From: Candidatus Bathyarchaeota archaeon
GTDB lineage: Archaea > Thermoproteota > Bathyarchaeia > Bathyarchaeales > Bathycorpusculaceae
Direction of reading: 5' to 3'
DNA length: 64,000 nt
NCBI GenBank assembly: GCA_963733095.1
Contig: CAVTBV010000009.1
Location: forward strand, 1 to 64,000
Part shown: positions 14,560 to 32,495 of the stretch, one piece after another
Position numbering within the stretch: the first letter of the stretch is position 1
Layout of the letters: each line of letters starts with the position of its first letter
Notes under the pieces: model-generated
The model's input: only the letters and a program-made list of their open reading frames with translations
Told to the model about the DNA's origin: nothing
Databases searched by the model: none
Made by a program: the position numbers and the translations under genes

Positions 14560-15381
14560 TTGATATTGGGCTATCGGTTGACTTTAGAACAGTATGCTTA
14601 TTTGCTTGATCTTTTTTATGCGGGAATGTGTCTACGAAAGATTTCTCGCTTGTTTAGGGCACACTACGGAATTCCGATTTCTCCTGCAACTATACTCCGC
14701 CGAATATTGTACTGGGTAGGAGCAGTAGACGAAGCTCTACCATATTATATTGAAAAAGGTGAATACGGTTTTGAGTTTCAGTTCGGGGACATATGGGAAA
14801 CGGATGAAATGTTCTTTAAGCTTAGAAAGAATGAGTTAGCATTAATGGTGGTTAGAGATCTAAAGACTGGTTTTGATCTTGGCATAAATATAGACTATCC
14901 AGTTACAATTGAAACAGTAAAAATAGCTTTTAAAAATGCCGTGGCAATGGCCAAAAAATCCCCTGTTGAAGTGAGATGCGATGGCCTGCCAGTATATGAT
15001 AAGGCGGTTAAAGATGCGTGTGGACCCAAAACAAAACTCACAGTAAATAAAAGAGAAGGTGACATGGGACAAAACCAAGCGATTGAAGGGCATAACGGCG
15101 TATTTAGGGCTAGATTTAACGCAATGAAAAGCTTGCACAGTAAAGAAAAATCACCGCTAATAATAAAGGGTGTAGTAATTGATTATAATTTTGTCAACCC
15201 TAGTCCAAGCCTTTGCGATATGACACCAGCAGAAGTTGCGCTAAACAAAAAATCAATCGATGGAAAACACAGTTGGCTCCCTCTAATAAAACTTGCAATT
15301 GATTACAAGAAAAATATTAGCCCAAAAAAACGAAGCAAAAGATCCAAGCCCAAAGATTCAACTTTGGACTCTTTTGTTTAA
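14560..15381 (+). CDS. IS6/IS240-like DDE transposase
   Basis: GMCLRKIS HTH, WETDE, RCDG, AIEGHN, YNFVNP..TPAE; GGAGG RBS before TTG. Confidence 0.8.
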   Translation: MILGYRLTLEQYAYLLDLFYAGMCLRKISRLFRAHYGIPISPATILRRILYWVGAVDEALPYYIEKGEYGFEFQFGDIWETDEMFFKLRKNELALMVVRDLKTGFDLGINIDYPVTIETVKIAFKNAVAMAKKSPVEVRCDGLPVYDKAVKDACGPKTKLTVNKREGDMGQNQAIEGHNGVFRARFNAMKSLHSKEKSPLIIKGVVIDYNFVNPSPSLCDMTPAEVALNKKSIDGKHSWLPLIKLAIDYKKNISPKKRSKRSKPKDSTLDSFV

Positions 15382-16545
15382 CTCTGAGCTGGCTTCGATT
15401 GGTGTTTTCCCTCCGAGAGCTGAGTGAGGACGCTTGGAGTTATAGTATAATCGAAGTCCATCGAGAAGTTGGGCTGAAGAAGACAGATTGTCTAGTCTTC
15501 GGAAGTTTTTTATTCTCGTTTTAAGAGTTCCGTTTACTCGTTCAACTAAGTTGTTGTTAGTTGGGTCGGTAAATTTAGGCTTCGATAGATGCTTTATTTT
15601 GCAATCATAATCCTTTGATAAGGCGATATTGTAACTTTTCAAGCCGTCTGTCACAATTTCAATTTCTCCAAGTCCCGACTGAGCTTTTCTTAATGCCTCG
15701 CGTATTACCATTTCAGCGTCTTCGCTTGTTCTTCCAAAAGTTACCTCGCTTGCCAGCAATATCTTTGTTTCCGCATCCAAAGCATTCCACAGATAAGCGA
15801 GCTTGCCTCTTATTTTTATCAGGGTTTCGTCCACATGCCACGTTTTCCCAACATGCAAACTGTGTTCTTTCTCCAGTGCTTTCATGTTCTTTATGATGCG
15901 CCTTATCCATCGGAATATCGTTGGATACGAAACATGTAATGAGTAGATACTGTTCATGTGGTGTTCTATCGCACGGAGGCTTAATCCTTTGAAATAAAGG
16001 TCTGCCACCGCGATTACTGCTAGAGGATTTCCTTTCAGACCTTTACTCTCACCCTTATCACCGAATTTATGCTTGCATTCCTTGCACATATATCTCTGAT
16101 CTGCAAATTCTTTGTGATGGCTTAGTCCTTTTCTTATTATTCGGTTTGAATTGCATTTTGGACATCTGATCTCTCCGGATTGAAAATTCGCCATTAGAAT
16201 GTAGGGCAATCTGTTTAGAAAAAGCACAGCATATACATGCTTACACGATTGAAGTCTTTTTTCGTGGTCTTTACATTCGCAGACCCACCGTTTCCCATTC
16301 CAATATACTTTGTACCATCTTTCCATGTTTGATGATCGTACTAAGTACGTGTTTTCATCATTTCTCTTAATCATGCTGCCCTTTGCTAAAATCGCGAGCC
16401 CCCGCATTTCTCGTTCGCTGAACTCTCTCTTTCCCCTTCTTTGTGGGTAAGCTTCACTTACAGAGCACCCTAGCGAAGTTGGTTTTGGATCTTCGCCTAT
16501 CTTTCTGATGGGGCTGTTCTTTGTTGCTTTGAAAGCTTTGTCCAC
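15358..16545 (-). CDS. IS6-like DDE transposase with SWIM Zn-finger and Zn-ribbon N-terminus
   Basis: CECKD..CKH (SWIM), CPKC..CKEC, WHVDET, VTDG, NNLVERVN, YYNSKRPHSALGGKTP. Confidence 0.88.
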   Translation of the reverse strand: MDKAFKATKNSPIRKIGEDPKPTSLGCSVSEAYPQRRGKREFSEREMRGLAILAKGSMIKRNDENTYLVRSSNMERWYKVYWNGKRWVCECKDHEKRLQSCKHVYAVLFLNRLPYILMANFQSGEIRCPKCNSNRIIRKGLSHHKEFADQRYMCKECKHKFGDKGESKGLKGNPLAVIAVADLYFKGLSLRAIEHHMNSIYSLHVSYPTIFRWIRRIIKNMKALEKEHSLHVGKTWHVDETLIKIRGKLAYLWNALDAETKILLASEVTFGRTSEDAEMVIREALRKAQSGLGEIEIVTDGLKSYNIALSKDYDCKIKHLSKPKFTDPTNNNLVERVNGTLKTRIKNFRRLDNLSSSAQLLDGLRLYYNSKRPHSALGGKTPIEASSELNKRVQS

Positions 16546-17831: not shown

Positions 17832-18236
17832 TCACCTTAACGCTTGAATAGGCTTTATTAGGAAGTTTTGGGCATTCCAACAAACGATCATTCCAATAAA
17901 AAATCCCGGTGATTTGCCTGGGCATAAAAGGTAACTTACCATGTAATCAAATCTTCGCGACCGTGCTCGAGCCCTTACAAGTTCATCAATATGGTCAGTC
18001 CCTTCTTTTTTTAGAAAAAGATCCCCTGAAAATTTGAACCCTTTTTCGCTAAGAAACTTCTGACATGCCTCTACTTGTTTCGAAATGTTAACTTCTTTTT
18101 TTGCTTCGTCGGAAACGTAAATAGCTGCCAATTGAGCATTTTTATTTAATATCATAGTTGTTTGCTGATAATTTTCTTTTTTCATTATCTGGGCGGTCTT
18201 CTTGTTTGCCATGTTCTCAATATGTTTTTTCTCCAT
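17832..18236 (-). CDS. Degenerate serine-resolvase catalytic-domain-like protein
   Basis: AAIYVS..ISKQVEACQKF..G..RARSRRFD resembles the resolvase N-domain but lacks the canonical Y-x-R-x-S. Confidence 0.55.
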   Translation of the reverse strand: MEKKHIENMANKKTAQIMKKENYQQTTMILNKNAQLAAIYVSDEAKKEVNISKQVEACQKFLSEKGFKFSGDLFLKKEGTDHIDELVRARARSRRFDYMVSYLLCPGKSPGFFIGMIVCWNAQNFLIKPIQALR

Positions 18237-18335
18237 TTTTCGTCACCTTTAACGCTGTGCGTTAATGCACAACATTAATAAACAACCAACTATATAAGCG
18301 TTGTTTGATAACGATGTTCACCAGTGCACAACAAA

Positions 18336-18536
18336 ATGAACCAAGATATCGAAAAAATAGTCTTGGAATTCCTTCGGAAAGAGTATCCAAAAGACTTCTC
18401 AATAGAAGAAATAGCCGCAAAAACCGGCGTGCATCGGAACACTATCTCAAAATATGTATTTGGATTAGAAAAGTGTGGAAAAGTGAAGATTTCGAGGATA
18501 GTGGGAAGAGCAAAAATGTATGTTGCCGAAAAGTAG
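18336..18536 (+). CDS. Small winged-helix DNA-binding protein
   Basis: FSIEEIAAKTGVHRNTISKYVFGLEKCGKV..VGRAKMY. Confidence 0.8.
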   Translation: MNQDIEKIVLEFLRKEYPKDFSIEEIAAKTGVHRNTISKYVFGLEKCGKVKISRIVGRAKMYVAEK

Positions 18537-18571
18537 ATGACTCTCGGAACCCTAGCAAATGTGAAAGTGGT

Positions 18572-18829
18572 ATGGCTATTGCCATTCAGAATAGAGCAGC
18601 AATTTACATTTGCGCTTTCTCGACAAACAATCAAAAATCAATTATTTCAAGTCAACTTCAAGTGTGCATACGGTTTATTCAGAGCGAAGGATGGACTTGT
18701 TCAGACTTATACGTAGAAAGAAAAGCTGGAGGATCCATAACTTCCTTAGCACGTACTCGAGCAAGGGCTGGACAATTTGACTTAATTATAAGCTTTTTAG
18801 AATTTGTTCCTAACGGGACAGGTAACTGA
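18572..18829 (+). pseudogene. Second serine-resolvase-like domain, truncated
   Basis: RAAIYICAFST..ISSQLQVC..GW..YVE..RARAGQFDLII; homologous GMIFV segment continues after stop codons. Confidence 0.55.
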
Positions 18830-19021: not shown

Positions 19022-19243
19022 TTGGTGAAAATCGTTATTACCCCTAAGAAGATCAAATATCAGCGTTCTTTAAAATGTGACTCGAAACAGCGTTTAGTTT
19101 TTTCATGCGCAAACTGTCGCAAGAAATTTTCGTTTGAGGAAGCATATTTAGTAGGTGGCAATGGAAAAATTATTAAGAACTGGATGAATGAAGACGTATT
19201 TGCGTTGTCGTTATACTGCAAAGAATGCGTAAAAAAAATTTAG
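19022..19243 (+). CDS. Small Zn-finger protein
   Basis: CANC...YCKEC. Confidence 0.5.
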   Translation: MVKIVITPKKIKYQRSLKCDSKQRLVFSCANCRKKFSFEEAYLVGGNGKIIKNWMNEDVFALSLYCKECVKKI

Positions 19244-19670
19244 AAAAAGCTCTCAAGACTTTTTTGGTTGAAGGCCCAAAAACTGAAACAAACTGTGCTA
19301 TTACTCGGCCAAATATCGAAATCAACGCTCCACAAATCGAATTAAACTTCGTTTGGTATCGCGCACCTGATTAGGCTTATGATTGTTCGATATTTGAGGT
19401 AAAAAATGTATGCGATTATAATGTCATCAAAAATTTCTTCGCCAAAACCTGCTTAATGCTTTAAAAGGAAAAAGACGGCAATCGACCCTAAGTAATGTTG
19501 TCACTTTCAGATAGATTCAGACCCCTTGGAGATGCTGCCAGAGGCTTATTATAAAAAAAAAGATAATCAAATAAAATGTGATACCTAAAAAGTAACGGGA
19601 ATAAGTCAATAAACTTTATTTCTGTCATTAACCAATGAGTCAACAACCTATAACAAGTGGAGAATGTACA

Positions 19671-19919
19671 ATGCCTGAAGAACATAAAAAATTCGAAATT
19701 TTTGTTAATGGTAGTCGAAAGCCTTGGGACGAGGAAACGATCAATTATGTGCAGGTTGTCAATTTGGGATTCCCTCGCCCACCAAAACCAAACGAGATAT
19801 TCACAGTTGACTATACCAAGGGTCCCAAGGAGAACCCTAAGGGAACTCTGGCAGAGGGACAAACCGTAAAGGTCAAGAGCGGTATGGCATTCGATGTCAC
19901 TCCAACTGATAAGTCGTAA
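19671..19919 (+). CDS. Ubiquitin-like (multi-ubiquitin family) beta-grasp protein
   Basis: FEIFVNG..INYVQVVNLGF..FTVDYTKGP..GTLAEGQTVKVKSGMAFDVTPTDKS; GGAGA RBS before ATG 19671. Confidence 0.85.
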   Translation: MPEEHKKFEIFVNGSRKPWDEETINYVQVVNLGFPRPPKPNEIFTVDYTKGPKENPKGTLAEGQTVKVKSGMAFDVTPTDKS

Positions 19920-21087
19920 TGATGACCTAAAGCTACTTCAAGACGAAGGCTACGAAGTAAGTGTATTAAGCGGGCATCTTCTAGTCGCACACGTACCATA
20001 TGTTAACTCGAAGAAACAAGTTGCATATGGAACGTTGGTATCCCCGCTAGATTTGGCTGGCGACAAGACTATCAAACCATCCAATCATGTCGTCTATTGG
20101 GTCGGAGAATACCCATGTGACTCCAAAGGTTCACAGATGGTAAAACTTGTCAATGATCCGAATTTTCGGCTGAAAATCAGCGAAGGACTTGAAACTACCT
20201 GTCAGTTCTCTCATAAACCCGATGGAGGCTATGCCAATTATCACGAAAAGATGAGCAGGTACATCAAGATTCTTGAGGCGGAAGCACATGTTATTGACCC
20301 TACCGCTACCGCCCAAACCCACCCGGTTATTCGGACAATCGATGGGGATTCCGTCTTTTGCTACGTGGATAACGCTTCCAGCCATGCAGGCACTACAGCG
20401 ATAAACGAGAAACTCAGAGCACGTATCGCGATTGTTGGGCTGGGGGGAACTGGCGCGTACATCCTTGATTTTGTCGCAAAGACATTGGTCAATGAGATTC
20501 ATCTATTCGATGGTGACAGGTTCCTTCAGCACAATGCCTTCCGCAGTCCAGGGGCACCGTCATGCGAAGACTTAGGAAAGCAGCTAACTAAGGTGGAGTG
20601 GTTTGCTGAAAATTACTCACGAATGCGGAAGAAAATAATTCCTCATTTCCAATTCATTGACGATACGAACGTCTCAGAATTAGAGACTATGGACTTCGTA
20701 TTTCTTTGCCTTGATAATCCAGAAGCAAAGAAGATTATTGTCGAGTACCTTGTAGAAAAAAATATTTCATTTATTGATGTCGGAATGGGTCTAGTTCAGA
20801 ATGAAGCGATAGGTGGCGCAGTTCGAGTGACTGCTTGCACACCATCCTTTCATGAACACGTTGCGAGAAGAATCAACTTCATTAACGGAGAAGACGAGGT
20901 TTATTCTCGTAATATTCAGATTGTGGAGATGAATGCGTTAAATGCGGCTCTTGCCGTCATTAAGTGGAAGAAGCTCTGCGGATTTTACGCAGATTTGGAA
21001 CACGAGCACCATACGGTCTATAGTATTCCCACAAATGAGCTGATTAACGATGACTTGCCAATTGAAACGAAAACGGATCACGCCTAA
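19894..21087 (+). CDS. E2-like (DUF6791-type) domain fused to a ThiF/E1 adenylation domain
   Basis: N-terminal LLVAHVPYVN..HVVYWVGEYPC; C-terminal IAIVGLGGTG, LFDGD, HNAFR, FLCLD, IDVGMG. Confidence 0.88.
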   Translation: MSLQLISRNDDLKLLQDEGYEVSVLSGHLLVAHVPYVNSKKQVAYGTLVSPLDLAGDKTIKPSNHVVYWVGEYPCDSKGSQMVKLVNDPNFRLKISEGLETTCQFSHKPDGGYANYHEKMSRYIKILEAEAHVIDPTATAQTHPVIRTIDGDSVFCYVDNASSHAGTTAINEKLRARIAIVGLGGTGAYILDFVAKTLVNEIHLFDGDRFLQHNAFRSPGAPSCEDLGKQLTKVEWFAENYSRMRKKIIPHFQFIDDTNVSELETMDFVFLCLDNPEAKKIIVEYLVEKNISFIDVGMGLVQNEAIGGAVRVTACTPSFHEHVARRINFINGEDEVYSRNIQIVEMNALNAALAVIKWKKLCGFYADLEHEHHTVYSIPTNELINDDLPIETKTDHA

Positions 21088-21373
21088 GTTTGTGCGCTAT
21101 ATTCCTGAAAAGGTTGAGGAGGGTATTCTCTACATCTCCGTACTTTACGCAACGGCAACCCATAGGTGCCCTTGCGGTTGTGGCGAAATCGTAGTGACAC
21201 CAATTAAACCAAAAGACTGGAGTTTGACATGGAATGGAGAAACGGTGACTTTAGATCCATCTATTGGAAATTGGAGTTTTCCGTGTCAATCACACTATTG
21301 GATAATTGAGAATGAAGTAATATGGGTGAAGAAATTGGGTCATTCGAAACCAGACTATCCCCGCAAAAGATAG
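21050..21373 (+). CDS. DUF6527-like Cys/His metal-binding protein
   Basis: HRCPCGCG..VTP..W..TLDPSIGNWSFPCQSHYWI; overlaps the E1 stop. Confidence 0.82.
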   Translation: MTCQLKRKRITPKFVRYIPEKVEEGILYISVLYATATHRCPCGCGEIVVTPIKPKDWSLTWNGETVTLDPSIGNWSFPCQSHYWIIENEVIWVKKLGHSKPDYPRKR

Positions 21374-21848
21374 CTTATCGAAAAGCTCGACTATGAAAAG
21401 AGTGCAAGGGACAAATTGGCAGCTTCAAACTGTGATGAAAATTTAAGAAAATAGTCTTATTTCGTTATATCAGAGATAAGATCTCAGACCATTAGTGGTC
21501 CGAACATGCTATCTGATTCTTCAGTAGGTGATCATAAAAATTCCCAGCACATGCCGTCATGATTCGATATGATCACCTCTCAGGATTGGGTAAACTTTTG
21601 CTAAGCGTCGATGTGTAAGTTCGGGAAAGGGGCCAGATGTCTGACATTTTACTAACAATTGTTTCTCTTCTCTTTGATCCATCAATTCCGGTAATTTTCT
21701 AGAGGAATATGCTAAGATTGCCCTTTCTTTGAGGCGTCAGGACTTGATAAGATAAGGCAATCGAAAGTGGCCTTTAGTTTGCGTGGCACTGTCTGGATAG
21801 TCTTTTAGTTGCATAGTGAGAGCATAGGTGAAAATTGACCTGATTTCT

Positions 21849-22142
21849 TTAGTATAGCTCTGGCGGGATTTTGTGGTCTTCTTCTTTTATGGGGAGCGCT
21901 TTGTTCAGTTCTCTGAAGCCTTTAAGAACTGCTGTTCCGCGAGCAGTATTTGCATAAACCACTCTGCTTTTTCCAACGGTTCTTTCCTCAATTAGTCCTT
22001 GTTTGATTAGAAAATCCAAATATTCCTTTAAAACGCTGCAGTTAACATTTGACTTATACATAACATGCGTCAACTTTAGCGGTCCTTTTTGTGCTATCAC
22101 CTTGAGAATGTCAACGTACATTTCTAGTTTGGAGCGCCTCAT
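21849..22142 (-). CDS. Winged-helix transcription regulator (ArnR1/HTH_45-like)
   Basis: MRRSKLEMYVDILK..KLTHVMYKSNVN..YLDFLIKQGLI..YANTARG. Confidence 0.85.
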   Translation of the reverse strand: MRRSKLEMYVDILKVIAQKGPLKLTHVMYKSNVNCSVLKEYLDFLIKQGLIEERTVGKSRVVYANTARGTAVLKGFRELNKALPIKEEDHKIPPELY

Positions 22143-22285
22143 AACTTAACCCAAGCAACTGTTAAGATAGAGTTTAGGTATTAACAACTTGTGCGTAGCA
22201 ACCATTATGACAAACGCAAGCAAATCTCTAATAAGCCACCTGATTTGGGAAAAATTATTTATCCTATCTCTACTAATATTCAAAC

Positions 22286-22385
22286 GGTTAAGGGTCTGCC
22301 CAAACGCTTTAAACCCCTTCTCGAAAAAAATAAGCGTTCAACCCTTAATCATGGCGCGGCCAAAAGGCGTGCCATCAACCTTTTA
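22286..22385 (+). ncRNA. Putative structured small RNA, copy 1
   Basis: Stems 22286-22295/22341-22350 and 22351-22357/22369-22375; upstream BRE/TATA-like sequence; homologous copy at 37041-37140 with pairing preserved. Confidence 0.55.
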
Positions 22386-22639
22386 TGCTTTCTTTCTCAA
22401 GGTCCGAGAACTAAGTATAGCAGTCCGCTGGCTATTGCGATTATTCCAAGCGTGGCAGTCAGGTACTTAATTTTTTGTTTTCCAGCGAATTTAATAAGAA
22501 AGTCAATTAGAAACAGGCTGATTACAGTTGAGGTAATTATTGTTATAGCTAAACCTATCCATCCTATTCCAGCTATTGAGGGAGCAAATAAATGGGTGTT
22601 GGGGCCTTAACAAGTATTGCCTGGGGACTTGGGGTCCAT

Positions 22640-22977: not shown

Positions 22978-23372
22978 GGCTAAGGTTTAGCCATTTTTTG
23001 CTTTGCATATTGTTTAATCTAGGGCATGGTTAAGGGGCTAAGTCATTATTGATTCAAACTATAGATAAAGGACACATTCTTGCGGTAGCCTGTACACCGC
23101 AAAATCAGGATAAAGTTTGCCACACTAATCAAAGAAAACTAGGTGACGTAAATTTGTTATACCGCAAAAACCTACAAAACAAACAAGGCTAAAACGCATA
23201 AATGGCATAGAGCATATTGATTTCAAGGACTTTATGGTTCGCTAAAGGTGGGCAATTCGTAGGTTATGTTAGCGACGACTATTCTACTAAACATAGGACA
23301 AACCGATGGATGAACGGATTTTGAGTTATTTCTGAATAGAATGTTCTTTGGTGAGGTTATTGGATTTATTCT

Positions 23373-24719
23373 TTATTTCCAATAGTATGTTTCGCCATAT
23401 TTTCCTGTGATAGGATATGCTGGGTCATCATAGACTATATCCAATTTTGAGCCATATTGGGTAAGCTTGCTTTGTACCTGGTTCCAGATTTGCTGTGAAG
23501 TACCGTTTGCATTCCATATGCCCCAAATAGTATCGTTTGGGTTTCGCATGCCCCATCCGTAATTTTCTGGCAAAACCAGCGCTGCTTGAGCTTTAACGCC
23601 ACCATGGATTACAGTGGGGTTGTGGACTACTTCATTCCAAAAGCGTTCTAATGCCTGGAAATGTTCCTCTTGTAGGGTTCCGTATGGTCCTGACATGCCA
23701 TCTGCATAGTTGAATAGTATGACGTATTGGGCTCCGTTTTCGTAGGAGGTTTTCATTTGGTTAAAAATTTCGTTTCCATCCGCAAGATATGGGGCTTGGG
23801 TGTATTTCCATGTCAAGATAGTTCCCCAGCTTTTGCCCTGCAGATTTGCAGCGCCGCGCACTAAGGCGATTTCTTGGGCAACCGAATTGTTCCAACCTAA
23901 CTGCGCAAGAACCACGTCGTATCCGCTCTTGTAATCCCACCAGTAAAGACCATAATCAGACGTAAAAATTGGAAAATCCCCTTTGCTTATTTTATATTGA
24001 TTTCTCAAGTTATCTATGGGTCCTTTGGTTTTGGCTATAAAGAGATTTGCTGCGGTATCGCCGTTAGGTATTGGGTTTGTGCTCTTTACTTGCTGATAAG
24101 TTTCTTCTTGAGCAATACGGTCTGAGCCATTTTCCATTGTATAGAAATTATTTCTCAGTACTTGATAAGAGTCCCCTGCATCATAGTGGCCATAAGGTAA
24201 ACCGCCTGTGTATACTTTATTTGTTGTACTTGTGATTGTTTCCCTTACTGTTATTGAGCCGTTTGGCTCATAAGTGGTCAAGTTGGTGTTACTTAGCGTG
24301 TTAGATATCGTTATAGAAGAATTGTTAGGGTCAAGCTCTGACGAAAAGCCATCATTGCTTTTCTGTACTGTAATTTTGCCGTCTGGAAAAAATGCTGTTA
24401 AACACCCATTGCCGTCATCGTAACTTACGATGCCATCATTCGATTTATTCACTGTTATTCCTTGGAGAGTGAAAGTAGCGGAGCCATCAAGCATTTTGCC
24501 TCCAGGTTCATCGCCCAAATAGACGCCCACGAACATGTCTCCCCATTGTTGCTTGGCAGTTCCTATCCACATTGCATTTTGGACGTGACCTGAAGCGTCA
24601 AAGTAAGCCGCAAAGTGTAATCCTTTTGATACCGCATAATCGCCTATTTCGTTGACGGCAGAAGTATTATCCTTTAAAAGGCCTGACTGTAGCACAAAGA
24701 GGTTTGTATAATTTGCGAC
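23373..24719 (-). pseudogene. 5'-truncated paralog of 3885-5444
   Basis: Begins at VANYTNLFVLQSG (compare VKSYTNLFVLASG); lacks the signal region and is joined directly to an ArsR remnant. Confidence 0.7.
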
Positions 24720-28929: not shown

Positions 28930-28975
28930 TTTTTCACGCCCTATTCTATCTTGTCTTAATAAACAAGAGTTAGTT

Positions 28976-29015
28976 ATTTCTACGCTCTAGGACACTGTGT
29001 ACTAAACTCAGTACA
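28976..29015. promoter_or_regulatory. Tandem operator, type B (TAGGACA / TGTACTA)
   Basis: Upstream of 28929(-). Confidence 0.65.
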
Positions 29016-29090
29016 GATTGCCGGACTGCCCTCCTATCAAGAAGAATAAAAATGCTGGAAAAAGAGAAAAAAGTAGTTGGTAATGGGTTT

Positions 29091-30052
29091 CTAATTTTGT
29101 ACCCATGTGTCCCAGTAGTAGCTGTAGGTGCTCATGTAGTGGCTTTCATGCACTGGAGATGCGGTACCCCAACTTGTGCTGACTGAATTTGTCCAGTAGG
29201 ACCAGCCTCCAGCGTTGTGAAGCCAGTTCCGGTAGAATGTCGAATGTGAGGCGTCGTTGGTGAATTGTCCGTTGCTGTATACTTCGTTCTGGAAGCCTCC
29301 TTGAACCCAAAGGTTTGATAGGTGTCCGCTTCTGACCCAATTGTAATTTATCCAGACATCGTATTTCCAACATTGCTGTCCTGGGTGCCATCTAACATCA
29401 TTACAAATGTATCCGTTGCAGTTGAGGGTGTGTTCTTGTCCATGTAATATGTCATGCTGCCTCCGCCTTCATCGGAATCATAAGTATACCACTTGTAAGC
29501 TTCACCAGCATCATGGGTAACAACTACTTCAGCCCAGTTAGTAATGCCATTTAAGTCTCCTAATTGGACACAAAGATAGTGGTTTAGAGTTTGACCTGAA
29601 CTCATAGAGCCACAAACTATCTCAGCACTAACTCCTGTCCATGAATATCCGCTGGTCCTCATGTTTGAAGTCTTTTGAATCAAAGAAGTTGCTGCATTGC
29701 CTTGTTGGTTGGTAACTGTATTTTCATTCGAAGGTACTGGTATACTGATTGGCATTTTAGCCTGCTCTTCAGAAGTCAACTCTTTTCCAATCCATGTTGC
29801 ACTCGTCTTTGGATACCAACCCATGCCCAGCTTTTCATGTTCAACAGTTAATTGGTCATCGCTTAGCCCTTGCGCTCTAAATTCCTGAATCTTTAAAGTA
29901 ACAGGATCAACAAAGTTTTTGAGAGGCTGCCACGAACCAACGCTAGAAGTCTGATTATGTGTCTGCGCTGCCACAGTAAGCATCATTCAAGAAAGCATCG
30001 AAACGACAAGAAAAACGGCGGTTAAACAATAAGCGCTTTTATTCTTAATCAT
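29091..30052 (-). pseudogene. Disrupted paralog of 31527-32495
   Basis: In-frame TGA at 29987-29989 and a frameshift near 29372; otherwise highly similar through to WDTWVQN. Confidence 0.85.
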
Positions 30053-31359: not shown

Positions 31360-31443
31360 CGCTTTTTTCGTTTTTTCACCTCTTGCAAGTTATAACCTTG
31401 CAAGCTATGTCTTACTAATCAATAGATAGTTAATACCGTGCAC

Positions 31444-31493
31444 TAGGACAAAGTGTATTGAACTTAGGACAGACCGCTAGACTATTTAGGACA
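31444..31493. promoter_or_regulatory. Three TAGGACA half-sites, type B operator
   Basis: At 31444, 31465 and 31487 (21-22 bp period). Confidence 0.65.
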
Positions 31494-31526
31494 CTAACAA
31501 CAAAAAAATAATTGGAGTTTTTTTCC

Positions 31527-32495
31527 TTAATTTTGCACCCATGTATTCCAGATATAGCTGTAAGAACCCATTACGTGGCTTTCTCTCACTGGAGACGCTG
31601 CACTAAAGCCTGAAGATATACTGTTTGTCCAGTAAGACCAGCCACCTGCGTTATGTACCCAGTTGCGGTTGAACAGTGTAGACGAAGCATCGTTGGTGAA
31701 TGCCCCATTGCTGTATACCTCTTTCTGGAAACCTCCTTGAACAAACAGGCTCGATATGTGTCCGCTTCTAACCCAATTGTAATTTATCCACATATCGTAT
31801 TTCCAGCCACTGCCATCTTGTGTTCCGTCTAGCATTATTGTGTAAGTGTCGGTTGCAGTTGAAGCGGTGTTCTTGTCCATGTAATAGACCATGCTGCCGC
31901 CGTTTTCATCATTGTCATAAGTGTACCACTTGTAAGTTTCGCCTAAGTTGTGGGTAACTACTAGCTCAGCCCAGTTCGTAATGCCATCCAAGTCACCTAA
32001 CTGAACGCATGCATAATGATACTGTGTTTGCCCCGAAGCTACATTCATAGAGCCACAAACCATTTCGGTGCTAACGCCAGTCCATGAGTACCCACTTGTC
32101 CGCATGCTTGAAATCTTTCTCGGTAAAGAAACCATTGGGTTAACAGAATTGCGGTCAATATTAGCAGTGGAGTCCTTTGCTGGTGTGCTAATTGGCAGTT
32201 TAGCTTGCTCTTCGGGAGTCAACGCATGCCCAAGCCATGTTGCACCTGTCTCTGAATCCCAACCCATGTTTAGCTTTCCTAACTCAGTAGTTATTTGGTC
32301 ATTGCTTAATCCTTGTGTTCTAAACTCTTGTATCTTTAAAGTTACTGGGTCAACAAAGTTTTGCGGGGGCTGCCAAGAATCGATGCCTGAAGTTTGGTTA
32401 TCTGTCTGCGCTGCCGTTGTAAGCGTCATCACAGAGAGCATCGAAAAGGCAAGAAGTATTGCAGTTAAACTATAAGCGCTTTTCTTCTTAATCAT
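31527..32495 (-). CDS. Secreted protein with a pro-domain and a neprosin-like beta-sandwich
   Basis: Signal peptide; NWAELVV...FQKEVYS. Confidence 0.6.
   Translation of the reverse strand: MIKKKSAYSLTAILLAFSMLSVMTLTTAAQTDNQTSGIDSWQPPQNFVDPVTLKIQEFRTQGLSNDQITTELGKLNMGWDSETGATWLGHALTPEEQAKLPISTPAKDSTANIDRNSVNPMVSLPRKISSMRTSGYSWTGVSTEMVCGSMNVASGQTQYHYACVQLGDLDGITNWAELVVTHNLGETYKWYTYDNDENGGSMVYYMDKNTASTATDTYTIMLDGTQDGSGWKYDMWINYNWVRSGHISSLFVQGGFQKEVYSNGAFTNDASSTLFNRNWVHNAGGWSYWTNSISSGFSAASPVRESHVMGSYSYIWNTWVQN

What the first reader, a model, noticed from the sequence alone, without database searches (positions are those of the whole stretch)
19671..21373. Three-gene ubiquitin-like conjugation operon (Ubl ending -TDKS, E2-E1 fusion, DUF6527-like) on an archaeal island
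Seen: three overlapping ORFs. The first is an 82-aa beta-grasp Ubl with no C-terminal Gly-Gly (ends DVTPTDKS). The second has an E2-like N-domain carrying HxxxWxGEYPC fused to a ThiF adenylase (GLGGTG) that lacks the usual CxxC Zn pairs. The third is a small CPCGCG...C..H protein. No JAB deubiquitinase, E3 or sulfur-transfer enzyme is adjacent. Known: bacterial E1/E2/Ubl operons (Bil, CBASS Cap2) act in antiphage defence. From memory, this Ubl/E2-E1/DUF6527 arrangement is listed in bacteria but has no established mechanism. It is unlike archaeal SAMP/UbaA or eukaryote-like Ub systems. Inference: a horizontally acquired, probably antiviral, protein-conjugation system with non-canonical (Ser-terminal or processed) Ubl chemistry, in which DUF6527 acts as peptidase, E3 or Zn-supplying subunit.
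Basis: partly seen in the sequence, partly recalled or inferred. Interest (0 to 1): 0.85.

Follow-up and report, generated by a model that had tools for sequence, protein, structure and literature searches.

The report
Archaeal Type II Bub ubiquitin-like operon
This is an archaeal copy of the recently characterised bacterial "Bub" protein-tagging operon (a small ubiquitin-like tag, a fused E2-E1 enzyme and a small protease); its parts are ordinary for that family, and the modest news is that it sits in archaea and that the tag always ends in serine instead of glycine.

Summary
This is a Type II Bub (formerly 6E.2/DUF6527) operon, BubA-BubBD-BubE. Its mechanism was published in 2024 (Ye et al., bioRxiv 10.1101/2024.11.21.623953). 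The Ubl is relayed through an E1 crossover-loop Tyr and an E2 Ser as oxyesters, and DUF6527 is a Ser-His protease with a C4 zinc site.

The window carries every published catalytic residue: S106/K108/H65, R217, Y337; BubE C40/C42/C44/C79, S71, H82.

The Ser terminus is a family trait, not a peculiarity of this locus. 121 of 121 BubA homologues end in Ser, as does the crystallised E. coli BubA.

The host is a Bathyarchaeia MAG. The operon is sporadic in its group (3 of 401 class genomes, 4 of 401 phylum genomes) and moves as a 1.76-kb cassette. It falls in a set that holds all 7 archaeal-labelled sequences and none of the 9 bacterial-labelled ones.

The biological role is unknown. Verdict: new member of a known kind, interest about 0.3.

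The parts
19671..19919 (+). bubA: single beta-grasp ubiquitin-like protein, 82 aa, with C-terminus ...TPTDKS. An alternative upstream ATG at 19635 would give 94 aa.
   Evidence: Pfam Multi_ubiq 6e-16. Residues 7-82 align end to end with the third beta-grasp domain (146-222) of E. coli ZDHYS365 BubA, PDB 9cd2, E 3.5e-12; both end in TDKS. Ser82 is invariant in 15 of 15 aligned loci and 121 of 121 homologues. GGAG lies 9 nt before the ATG at 19671.
19894..20373 (+). bubBD, E2 (UBC-like, DUF6791) domain, residues 1-160. Putative oxyester nucleophile Ser106, with His65 and Lys108.
   Evidence: Pfam DUF6791 7.8e-54. The AF2 domain model has pLDDT 86. Its best structural match is Citrobacter BubB 9eav_D: Z 9.8, rmsd 3.4 A, 120 of 128 residues, with the next match at Z 5.8, followed by UBC/UEV/RWD chains. 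S106 is kept in 120 of 120 and 142 of 145, H65 in 120 of 120 and 145 of 145, K108 in 118 of 120 and 129 of 145.
20374..21087 (+). bubBD, E1 (ThiF-type adenylation) domain. It has the G182xGGxG187 loop, Arg217 and crossover-loop Tyr337, and no CxxC pairs.
   Evidence: Pfam ThiF 1.2e-14. NCBIfam NF004805 scores 540.6 bits against a cut-off of 352 over the whole protein. The full-length AF2 model has pLDDT 92.6. The top 8 Foldseek PDB hits are Citrobacter BubCD chains, E 4.9e-14 to 1.0e-12. R217 is kept in 145 of 145 and Y337 in 144 of 145. The pLDDT block 331-340 drops to 73 between blocks of 93 and 92, as expected for a mobile loop.
21050..21373 (+). bubE: DUF6527 protein, 107 aa, with a C4 zinc site (C40, C42, C44, C79) and a Ser71/His82 dyad. 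It ends at a TAG where relatives carry a further tail of 10-45 residues.
   Evidence: Pfam DUF6527 3.6e-25. C40, C42, C44, C79, S71, S81 and H82 are invariant in 15 of 15. The complex model with BubA scores 0.82 against a best control of 0.00, and the BubA tail 75-82 touches BubE 70-78 and 82. An independent DNA run (X5) covers 21008-21458 without indels.
19654..21415 (+). Extent of the transferable three-gene cassette, i.e. the limits of homology to the closest relative's locus.
   Evidence: In tblastx of L003 (9.2 kb) against the whole window, all HSPs of 30 aa or more lie within 19654-21415, apart from one 37-aa HSP at 29188-29298. Among 13 same-genus genomes, DNA of the operon region is found only in G000 and in G401, which matches the whole 20-kb query at 100%.

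Best explanation

The mechanism below is inferred by homology to the characterised E. coli and Citrobacter systems:
1. The ThiF-type E1 domain of a BubBD dimer binds the beta-grasp protein BubA. Using ATP (G182-G187 loop, Arg217), it adenylates the carboxylate of the C-terminal Ser82.
2. The acyl group passes to Tyr337 on the mobile crossover loop as an oxyester.
3. It then passes to Ser106 of the N-terminal UBC-like domain, assisted by His65 and Lys108, as a second oxyester.
4. It ends on a lysine of a target protein.
5. BubE, a zinc-stabilised beta-sandwich with a Ser71-His82 dyad, grips the BubA tail and cleaves BubA-target bonds, so it restrains the pathway.

Shown here: the gene set, the folds, the conservation of every named residue, the predicted BubA-BubE interface, the patchy distribution and the archaeal host. 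Inferred: all of the chemistry, and the role. I take the role to be a stress or antiviral response, at roughly 40% odds. No target is known.
For: - Domain hits are all far above cut-off.
- The E1 domain is structurally closest to Citrobacter BubCD. The E2 domain is closest to Citrobacter BubB, Z 9.8 against 5.8 for the next chain.
- Published catalytic residues are conserved: S106 142 of 145, H65 145 of 145, K108 129 of 145, R217 145 of 145, Y337 144 of 145 representatives; all are at 118-120 of 120 in closer relatives.
- BubE's C4 site plus S71 and H82 are invariant in 15 of 15.
- BubA aligns end to end with the E. coli Type II BubA domain that was active in vitro.
- The three-gene order holds in 14 of 14 loci plus 3 of 3.
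- BubA-BubE complex model: score 0.82, best of 3 controls 0.00. That mark was reached by 58 of 80 solved complexes and 2 of 110 mismatched pairs. The runs agree in at least 80% of contacts and the partner pLDDT is at least 82. The counts hold only roughly, because my own alignments and a zinc ion were used. No solved relative of BubE exists by sequence, so the pass is not from memory of a solved complex.
- The mechanism is taken from Ye et al. 2024, sections 5 and 8-12.
- Horizontal spread: 4 of 401 phylum genomes and 3 of 401 class genomes carry it. Homology to the nearest locus stops at the cassette ends. A second, roughly 60%-identical allele is in another genome of the same genus.
- Contigs from two RNA-seq libraries match 19745-20020, which spans the bubA/bubBD junction, and 20353-20503 at 100%. 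This is only a weak hint of transcription.
Against: - No biochemistry was done on this copy.
- I could not align it directly to E. coli BubBD or Citrobacter BubE, because their sequences were not in hand. The residue equivalences rest on invariance, motif spacing and near-identical numbering.
- BubE here lacks the C-terminal extension that the authors call conserved across BubE proteins, and that 14 of 14 aligned relatives have. Its regulation or solubility may therefore be impaired.
- There are no CapW or CapH+CapP-like regulators, and no PADLOC defence model matches the 10 neighbours beyond weak HTH hits.
- The authors found no phage protection, so the defence role is conjecture.
- The two RNA libraries gave identical contigs and may be one data set. 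DNA carry-over is not excluded.
Confidence: 0.87

Rival explanations
1. The cassette is a decaying, no longer functional remnant of a mobile element. The genes are still open, but the system is inactive in this host.
For: - BubE stops at a TAG where all 14 aligned relatives continue for 10-45 residues. The in-frame sequence after the stop still shows K and Y at family-conserved spacing.
- Two related Nitrososphaerota loci (L014, L017) have bubBD split into two ORFs.
- The flanks hold IS-type transposase ORFs at 14560-16545. My reading of the translations also finds recombinase-like fragments at 17832-18829.
Against: - All three ORFs are intact across their Pfam domains, and every catalytic residue is retained.
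- An independent population (run X5) keeps the same reading frame and the same stop. In the 451 bases its contig covers in bubE and just after it, there are only 4 substitutions (1 synonymous, 3 conservative).
- RNA-library contigs match the operon.
- The BubA-BubE interface is still confidently modelled.
Confidence: 0.08
2. The E2-like domain works as a classical thioester E2 through Cys75, which lies ten residues after His65, as in my recollection of the HPN...C spacing of canonical E2s. On this view the archaeal clade differs from the published oxyester mechanism.
For: C75 is kept in 118 of 120 close relatives and 15 of 15 aligned loci. It lies in a conserved H-x3-[WF]-x-G-x2-P-C motif.
Against: - Across 145 family representatives, C75 is kept in only 104 (H 19, R 6, Y 6, F 4), while S106 is kept in 142.
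- In E. coli BubBD, S106A abolished conjugate formation.
- The authors place the invariant Ser at the position structurally equivalent to the E2 catalytic Cys.
- The E1 domain has no conserved Cys to feed a thioester relay; the crossover loop carries Y337 in 144 of 145.
Confidence: 0.04
3. It is a sulfur-carrier or cofactor or peptide-modification pathway of the ThiS/ThiF, MoaD/MoeB, SAMP/UbaA or MccB kind, not a protein-conjugation system.
For: The E1 domain shares the ThiF fold. ThiF, MoeB, UBA5 and MccB follow BubCD in the Foldseek list. A rhodanese-domain ORF lies 5.7 kb downstream.
Against: - Scores against ThiF, MoeB and UbaA models are far below cut-off, for example SAMPActivE1UbaA 13.6 against 450 and TIGR02356 26.6 against 275.
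- The Ubl has no Gly-Gly.
- An E2 domain and a Ubl-binding protease are fused or linked to it.
- The rhodanese gene is on the other strand, five ORFs away, and lies outside the region shared with other loci.
- The distribution is sporadic, unlike housekeeping cofactor genes.
Confidence: 0.01

Closest known systems
Type II Bub operon (6E.2) of E. coli ZDHYS365: BubA, BubBD, BubE (Ye, Gong, Chambers, Corbett 2024, bioRxiv 10.1101/2024.11.21.623953; BubA structure PDB 9cd2)
   Same: Same three genes in the same order, with no JAB peptidase. BubBD has the same DUF6791-ThiF architecture, with Ser106, Arg217 and Tyr337 against the published S106, R219 and Y342. BubA ends in the same TDKS. BubE has the C4 site plus the Ser-His dyad.
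   Different: - BubA here has one beta-grasp domain (82 aa) instead of three (222 aa).
- BubE lacks the hydrophobic terminal extension.
- The host is an archaeon, and the sequence falls in a set that holds only archaeal-labelled named members.
- BubBD identity to the bacterial loci found is 54% or less.
Type I Bub operon (6E.1) of Citrobacter sp.: BubAB, BubCD, BubE (PDB 9ea4, 9ea8, 9eae, 9eav)
   Same: Closest solved structures for both domains: BubCD for the E1 part (E 4.9e-14) and BubB for the E2 part (Z 9.8). It shares the oxyester logic and BubE.
   Different: Type I fuses the Ubl to the E2 and a JAB peptidase to the E1. Its Ubl ends in Gly after JAB cleavage, and its E2 Ser is helped by His plus Asp rather than Lys plus His. 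E1 sequence identity is only 18-21%.
CBASS Type II Cap2 (E2-E1 fusion) with Cap3
   Same: An E2-E1 fusion on one chain, and a peptidase that reverses conjugation.
   Different: Cap2 uses Cys thioesters and conjugates a CD-NTase, not a Ubl, and its peptidase is JAB. The PADLOC E1-E2 models match only the ThiF part, at 27.9 bits or less. No CD-NTase is present here.
Bil (bacterial ISG15-like) operons
   Same: A dedicated Ubl plus E1 and E2 on mobile or defence loci. The Ubl belongs to the same broad Multi_ubiq-type diversity.
   Different: Bil has separate E1 and E2 proteins with catalytic Cys, a JAB peptidase, a Gly-terminal Ubl after processing, and proven antiphage activity.
Archaeal SAMP/UbaA sampylation
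   Same: A beta-grasp protein activated by a ThiF-type E1 in an archaeon.
   Different: By recall, SAMPs end in Gly-Gly, have no E2 and double as sulfur carriers. The UbaA model scores 13.6 bits against a cut-off of 450.

Membership tests
Type II Bub (6E.2/DUF6527) operon | Gene set Ubl (BubA) + E2-E1 fusion (BubBD) + DUF6527 (BubE), co-directional, with no JAB/JAMM peptidase. | tested here: met
   Pfam on the neighbours shows no JAB. The same order is found in 14 of 14 and 3 of 3 related loci.
Type II Bub (6E.2/DUF6527) operon | The BubBD N-domain has a diverged UBC fold like BubB. | tested here: met
   VIA-align against 48,161 chains: 9eav_D (BubB) Z 9.8, rmsd 3.4 A, 120 aligned; next Z 5.8; most further rows are E2, UEV or RWD chains. 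Foldseek alone gave no match at E <= 0.001; BubB 9eae_C ranked 27 with E 0.86.
Type II Bub (6E.2/DUF6527) operon | Invariant E2 serine accompanied by invariant Lys and His, and no invariant catalytic Cys. | tested here: met
   S106 142 of 145 (3 have Cys), K108 129 of 145, H65 145 of 145, C75 only 104 of 145. In close relatives: 120, 118, 120 and 118 of 120. The assignment of which His and Lys are meant is mine, by conservation.
Type II Bub (6E.2/DUF6527) operon | E1 adenylation domain with a conserved Arg and an invariant Tyr on the crossover loop, and no catalytic Cys. | tested here: met
   R217 145 of 145 and Y337 144 of 145. Y337 lies in the lower-confidence block 331-340 (pLDDT 73) of an otherwise >90 model. 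The fold is closest to BubCD.
Type II Bub (6E.2/DUF6527) operon | BubE: DUF6527 fold with a C4 zinc site and a Ser-His dyad placed at the Ubl C-terminus. | tested here: met
   C40, C42, C44, C79, S71 and H82 are invariant in 15 of 15. In the complex model, BubA 75-82 touches BubE 70-78 and 82; score 0.82 against control 0.00. The correspondence to Citrobacter S92/H102 is by motif spacing, not by direct alignment.
Type II Bub (6E.2/DUF6527) operon | Accessory, not defining: a hydrophobic N- or C-terminal extension of BubE, reported as conserved. | tested here: not met
   The window's BubE is 107 aa and stops at TAG. The 14 aligned relatives are 117-153 aa with a tail. An independent run confirms the sequence. 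No PylS was found that could read TAG.
Type II Bub (6E.2/DUF6527) operon | ATP-dependent Ubl conjugation through Tyr and Ser oxyesters. | not testable with these tools
   Needs biochemistry. It has been shown only for the E. coli and Citrobacter proteins.
Antiphage / antiviral defence system | Protection against virus infection, or at least consistent placement among defence genes or damage-responsive regulators (CapW/BrxR, CapH+CapP). | tested here: inconclusive
   There are no PADLOC hits in the 10 neighbours except weak HTH matches, and no match in viral contigs. The authors report no protection in E. coli. Mobile-element context is present.
SAMP/UbaA (archaeal sampylation) | Gly-Gly-terminal SAMP and a UbaA-type E1 without an E2. 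| tested here: not met
   BubA ends in TDKS. NF047750 scores 13.6 bits against a cut-off of 450. An E2 domain is present.
CBASS Type II Cap2/Cap3 | Cap2 E2-E1 with catalytic Cys residues, beside a CD-NTase and a JAB Cap3. | tested here: not met
   PADLOC E1-E2 models score 27.9 bits or less and cover the ThiF part only. No CD-NTase or JAB is found in the neighbours.

The most novel reading that the evidence does not exclude
Type II Bub systems have an archaeal branch that spreads as a bare three-gene cassette among Bathyarchaeia, Nitrososphaeria and Thermoplasmata, with a BubA homologue also labelled Methanoregula. There it would act against archaeal viruses or other stress.

Its invariant Ser-terminal Ubl (121 of 121), which the main texts of the two Bub preprints do not remark on, would be mechanistically required and not merely tolerated. 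The terminal Ser side chain could, for instance, help position or activate the acyl-adenylate or oxyester relay, or mark the BubE cleavage site. That would make this the first E1 family specialised for a non-glycine Ubl terminus.
Probability: 0.2. Interest if true: 0.55.

Novelty: new member of a known kind. Interest (0 to 1): 0.3.

Why it matters
The finding adds little that is new about mechanism, because the operon class was dissected biochemically in 2024. Three points are still useful.

- **Not only bacterial.** 'Bacterial ubiquitination-like' systems are not confined to bacteria. A coherent set of archaeal sequences exists in at least three archaeal classes, at a frequency under 1% of the genomes sampled. 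This bears on how ubiquitin-like machinery moved between domains.
- **Invariant terminal Ser.** The universal C-terminal Ser of Type II BubA contrasts with the Gly terminus of Type I Bub and, by recall, of Ub, SUMO, ThiS, MoaD and SAMPs. This gives a simple, testable question about E1 specificity.
- **A minimal system.** With an 82-aa single-domain Ubl that should not form filaments and a naturally tail-less 107-aa BubE, this system might be an easier subject for structural work on BubE. The authors could not solve that structure.

Tried and rejected
- **Viral origin.** A scan of viral contigs with BubBD gave 7 pattern matches, none confirmed by tblastn.
- **Frameshift in bubE.** The DNA alignment suggested a 2-nt gap. 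Scoring the three downstream frames against the 14 relatives' tails gave means of 18.5-20.2 against shuffled means of 18.0-19.5, so none stands out. An in-frame stop fits slightly better by eye but is not proven. An independent run shows no indel.
- **TAG read as pyrrolysine.** The best PylS match is 28.6 bits against a cut-off of 178. TAG ends 11 of 37 long open frames in the window. Rejected.
- **Foldseek on the E2 domain.** No match at E <= 0.001. The fold was recognised only by the all-against-all VIA search.
- **Defence-island context.** PADLOC and NCBIfam on 10 neighbours gave nothing beyond weak HTH hits, an Sso10a-like protein and a rhodanese protein.
- **BubA single-sequence search.** It found only 9 proteins; the profile search was needed.
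- **Literature.** 'DUF6527' occurs in 4 held papers, which are the two preprints and their PMC copies. 'DUF6791/PF20590/PF20137/PRK06153/PF14452' added only an unrelated cyanobacterial TA paper. '6E.2/6E.1' added only a CBASS regulator preprint, seen in the listing only. 'archaea' occurs once in the mechanism preprint, for the P. furiosus JAMM1 comparison, and not at all in the Ubl preprint. 'terminal serine', 'S222' and 'TDKS' occur in neither main text. Supplementary tables (Table S1 with the 544 operons) were closed, so archaeal entries or the Ser terminus may be shown there. I read only the preprint versions. The PDB release dates of 2025 suggest that a journal version exists, which I did not see.
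- **Limits of the tree.** It used the quick method, with SH-aLRT support only. It held 60 rows that I chose from the 269 proteins in hand plus loci. L010 (contains N), L014 and L017 (split genes) were left out. 44 rows carry no organism label, so the '24-row archaeal set' may hold unlabelled bacteria. The root is unknown.
Full report
**What is there.** One search shows three co-directional, overlapping ORFs on the + strand:
- 19671-19919, 82 aa; an upstream ATG at 19635 would give 94 aa
- 19894-21087, 397 aa
- 21050-21373, 107 aa

The overlaps are 26 nt and 38 nt. The 19671 start is supported by a GGAG 9 nt upstream. The closest relative also starts at the equivalent codon, with 82 aa.

Pfam assigns Multi_ubiq (6e-16) to the first ORF, DUF6791 (7.8e-54) plus ThiF (1.2e-14) to the second, and DUF6527 (3.6e-25) to the third. 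NCBIfam places the fusion in the PRK06153 'hypothetical protein' equivalog NF004805 (540.6 bits, cut-off 352). Its scores against ThiF, MoeB, TcdA and UbaA models are far below cut-off. PADLOC has no model for the Ubl or the DUF6527 protein. Its Cap2 'E1-E2' models match only the ThiF part, weakly.

**It is a known system.** A full-text search for DUF6527 leads to Ye, Gong, Chambers and Corbett, bioRxiv 10.1101/2024.11.21.623953. I read sections 5 and 8-12 and passages of the companion preprint 10.1101/2024.11.21.623966. They rename the '6E/DUF6527' operons Bub.
- Type II Bub (6E.2) is exactly BubA (Ubl) + BubBD (E2-E1 fusion) + BubE (DUF6527), typically without a JAB peptidase.
- They show that Bub enzymes lack catalytic cysteines. 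The E1 uses an invariant Tyr on the crossover loop (Y342 in E. coli BubBD). The E2 uses an invariant Ser (S106), helped by invariant Lys and His.
- R219A, Y342F and S106A abolish ATP-dependent BubA-BubA conjugates.
- BubE is a weak Ser-His dyad protease with a C4 zinc site. It removes BubA conjugates in cells.
- They found no phage protection in E. coli and call the biological role open.

**Membership tested.** I collected two sets of BubBD relatives: 120 close ones (54-100% identity) and 145 full-length representatives of 50%-identity clusters (40-55% identity; the 6 rows shorter than 370 aa were dropped).

| Residue | 145 representatives | 120 close relatives |
|---|---|---|
| H65 | 145 | 120 |
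| S106 | 142 (the other 3 have Cys) | 120 |
| K108 | 129 | 118 |
| R217 | 145 | 120 |
| Y337 | 144 | 120 |

C75 is thus not the conserved nucleophile.

- An AlphaFold2 model of the whole protein is confident (pLDDT 92.6). Its top eight Foldseek PDB hits are all Citrobacter BubCD chains (E 4.9e-14 to 1.0e-12), ahead of ThiF, UBA5, MoeB and MccB.
- Y337 sits in the only lower-confidence block (331-340, pLDDT 73) of the E1 core, as expected for a mobile crossover loop.
- The N-domain modelled alone has pLDDT 86. Foldseek found nothing significant for it. An all-against-all VIA-align search put Citrobacter BubB first (Z 9.8, rmsd 3.4 A, 120 of 128 residues) and well above the next chain (Z 5.8). 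Most further rows are E2, UEV, RWD or Atg3 chains.
- In BubE, C40, C42, C44, C79, S71 and H82 are invariant in 15 of 15 sequences.
- A BubA + BubE + Zn complex model scored 0.82 against 0.00 for the best of three controls. That mark was reached by 58 of 80 solved complexes and 2 of 110 mismatched pairs. The runs agree in at least 80% of contacts and the partner pLDDT is at least 82. The counts hold only roughly, because my own alignments and a ligand were used. The BubA tail (75-82) lies on BubE 70-78 and 82. No solved relative of BubE exists by sequence, so this pass is not a memory of a known complex. It matches the AlphaFold 3 predictions the authors report for their proteins.

**The serine terminus.**
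[quoted passage not shown] That protein also ends ...TDKS.
- All 17 BubA ORFs next to BubBD in related loci end in Ser: TDKS, TDQS, TNRS or SNKS.
- So do 121 of 121 proteins listed by a profile search: TDKS 51, TNRS 32, TDQS 19, TNKS 7, TSRS 5, TDRS 4, others 3.

The non-Gly terminus is real but is a trait of the whole Type II family. The E. coli protein was expressed with N-terminal tags and was active without any processing enzyme, so the Ser carboxylate itself is presumably adenylated. Neither preprint's main text mentions this Ser. The figures and supplements were not visible to me.

**Host and spread.**
- A 100%-identical locus lies in a record labelled Candidatus Bathyarchaeota archaeon (L002). 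The window's own assembly has 2.84 Mb in 16 contigs and is 95% complete.
- The closest named relatives are archaeal: Bathyarchaeia 68%, Thermoplasmata 62%, Nitrososphaerota 59-60%, Nitrosopumilus 59%, and another Bathyarchaeota 56%. The nine bacterial loci found are 44-54% identical.
- In a quick maximum-likelihood tree of 60 rows, all 7 archaeal-labelled rows fall in one 24-row set with SH-aLRT 96, and none of the 9 bacterial-labelled rows does. The other 17 rows of that set are unlabelled, and the root is unknown.
- A BubA homologue labelled Methanoregula also exists.
- The operon is rare: DUF6791 in 4 of 401 genomes of the phylum (0 of 10 other genomes of the genus in that sample), and DUF6527 in 3 of 401 genomes of the class.
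- Among 13 same-genus genomes, DNA of the operon is present only in G000 and in G401, which matches the whole 20-kb query at 100%.
- Another genome of the genus (G715) carries a different allele, about 60% identical.
- Homology between the window and the nearest locus (L003) is confined to 19654-21415.
- IS-type transposase ORFs lie at 14560-16545.

This supports horizontal acquisition of a bare three-gene cassette. It does not show a defence island. Ten neighbours have no PADLOC match beyond weak HTH hits, there is no CapW or CapH+CapP, and no relative was found in viral contigs.

**State of the copy.**
- BubE here is the shortest of the 15 aligned sequences. It stops at TAG (21371-21373), where the relatives carry a tail of 10-45 residues, often ending in a Trp-rich hydrophobic stretch. 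The authors describe such extensions as conserved and possibly membrane-associating.
- A frameshift could not be demonstrated. An in-frame nonsense change is plausible. Pyrrolysine read-through is excluded.
- A DNA run from a different study covers 21008-21458 with no indel and four substitutions: I86I, K94R, L96W and R107K. The short form is therefore not an assembly error.
- Contigs from two soil RNA-seq libraries (identical, possibly one data set) match 19745-20020, across the bubA/bubBD junction, and 20353-20503 at 100%. This is a weak hint of transcription.

**Verdict.** This is a complete Type II Bub operon, a new archaeal member of a recently characterised kind. Confidence in membership and in the inferred oxyester mechanism is about 0.87. 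The defence role remains conjecture. The residual novelty is the archaeal set of sequences and the unremarked invariant Ser terminus.

Noticed in passing
window 21338-21450: bubE ends at TAG (21371-21373), while 14 aligned relatives continue with a tail of 10-45 residues. The in-frame sequence after the stop keeps K and Y at family-conserved spacing, which suggests a nonsense change. In run X5 codon 96 reads Trp, the family consensus, instead of Leu.
   Followed up: partly
BubBD representatives, column of window residue 106: 3 of 145 cluster representatives carry Cys instead of the catalytic Ser. These could be Type II Bub variants that use a thioester at the E2 step.
   Followed up: no
L014:3974-5187 and L017:1447-2660: In two Nitrososphaerota-type loci bubBD is split into two overlapping ORFs, by a frameshift or an assembly error, while bubA and bubE are intact.
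   Followed up: no
L005 and L006: Nearly identical Bub loci (BubBD end branches 0.016 and 0.019, flanked by the same HTH plus a 239-aa ORF that looks to me like a CapH+CapP-type regulator pair; this was not tested). They sit in MAGs labelled Gammaproteobacteria and Ilumatobacteraceae (Actinomycetota). This is either very recent transfer or a binning error.
   Followed up: no
window 14560-16545 and 17832-18829: Two DDE transposase ORFs (IS240/rve-type, the first below the Pfam cut-off). Beyond them are short ORFs whose translations look like fragments of a serine recombinase (my reading, no family hit). A copy of window 17862-18564 at 82% identity and of 19095-19248 at 74% lies on another contig of genome G401.
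   Followed up: partly
window 21868-22386, 23366-23975 and 28952-30000 / 31408-32443: Multi-copy families within the genus: the Sso10a-like winged-helix gene, the 3' part of the 440-aa ORF, and a 72%-identical paralogous pair inside the window itself. Most ORFs of the first 37 kb of the window have no Pfam match.
   Followed up: no
window 19894-19919 and related loci: The 26-nt bubA/bubBD overlap is kept at the same length in the related loci printed. The conserved BubA end (TDKS) and the conserved BubBD start (MS..LISRN) are therefore encoded by the same bases in two frames.
   Followed up: no
P0316: A BubA homologue 49% identical to the window's is labelled Methanoregula sp., a further archaeal lineage. 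Its neighbours were not examined.
   Followed up: no
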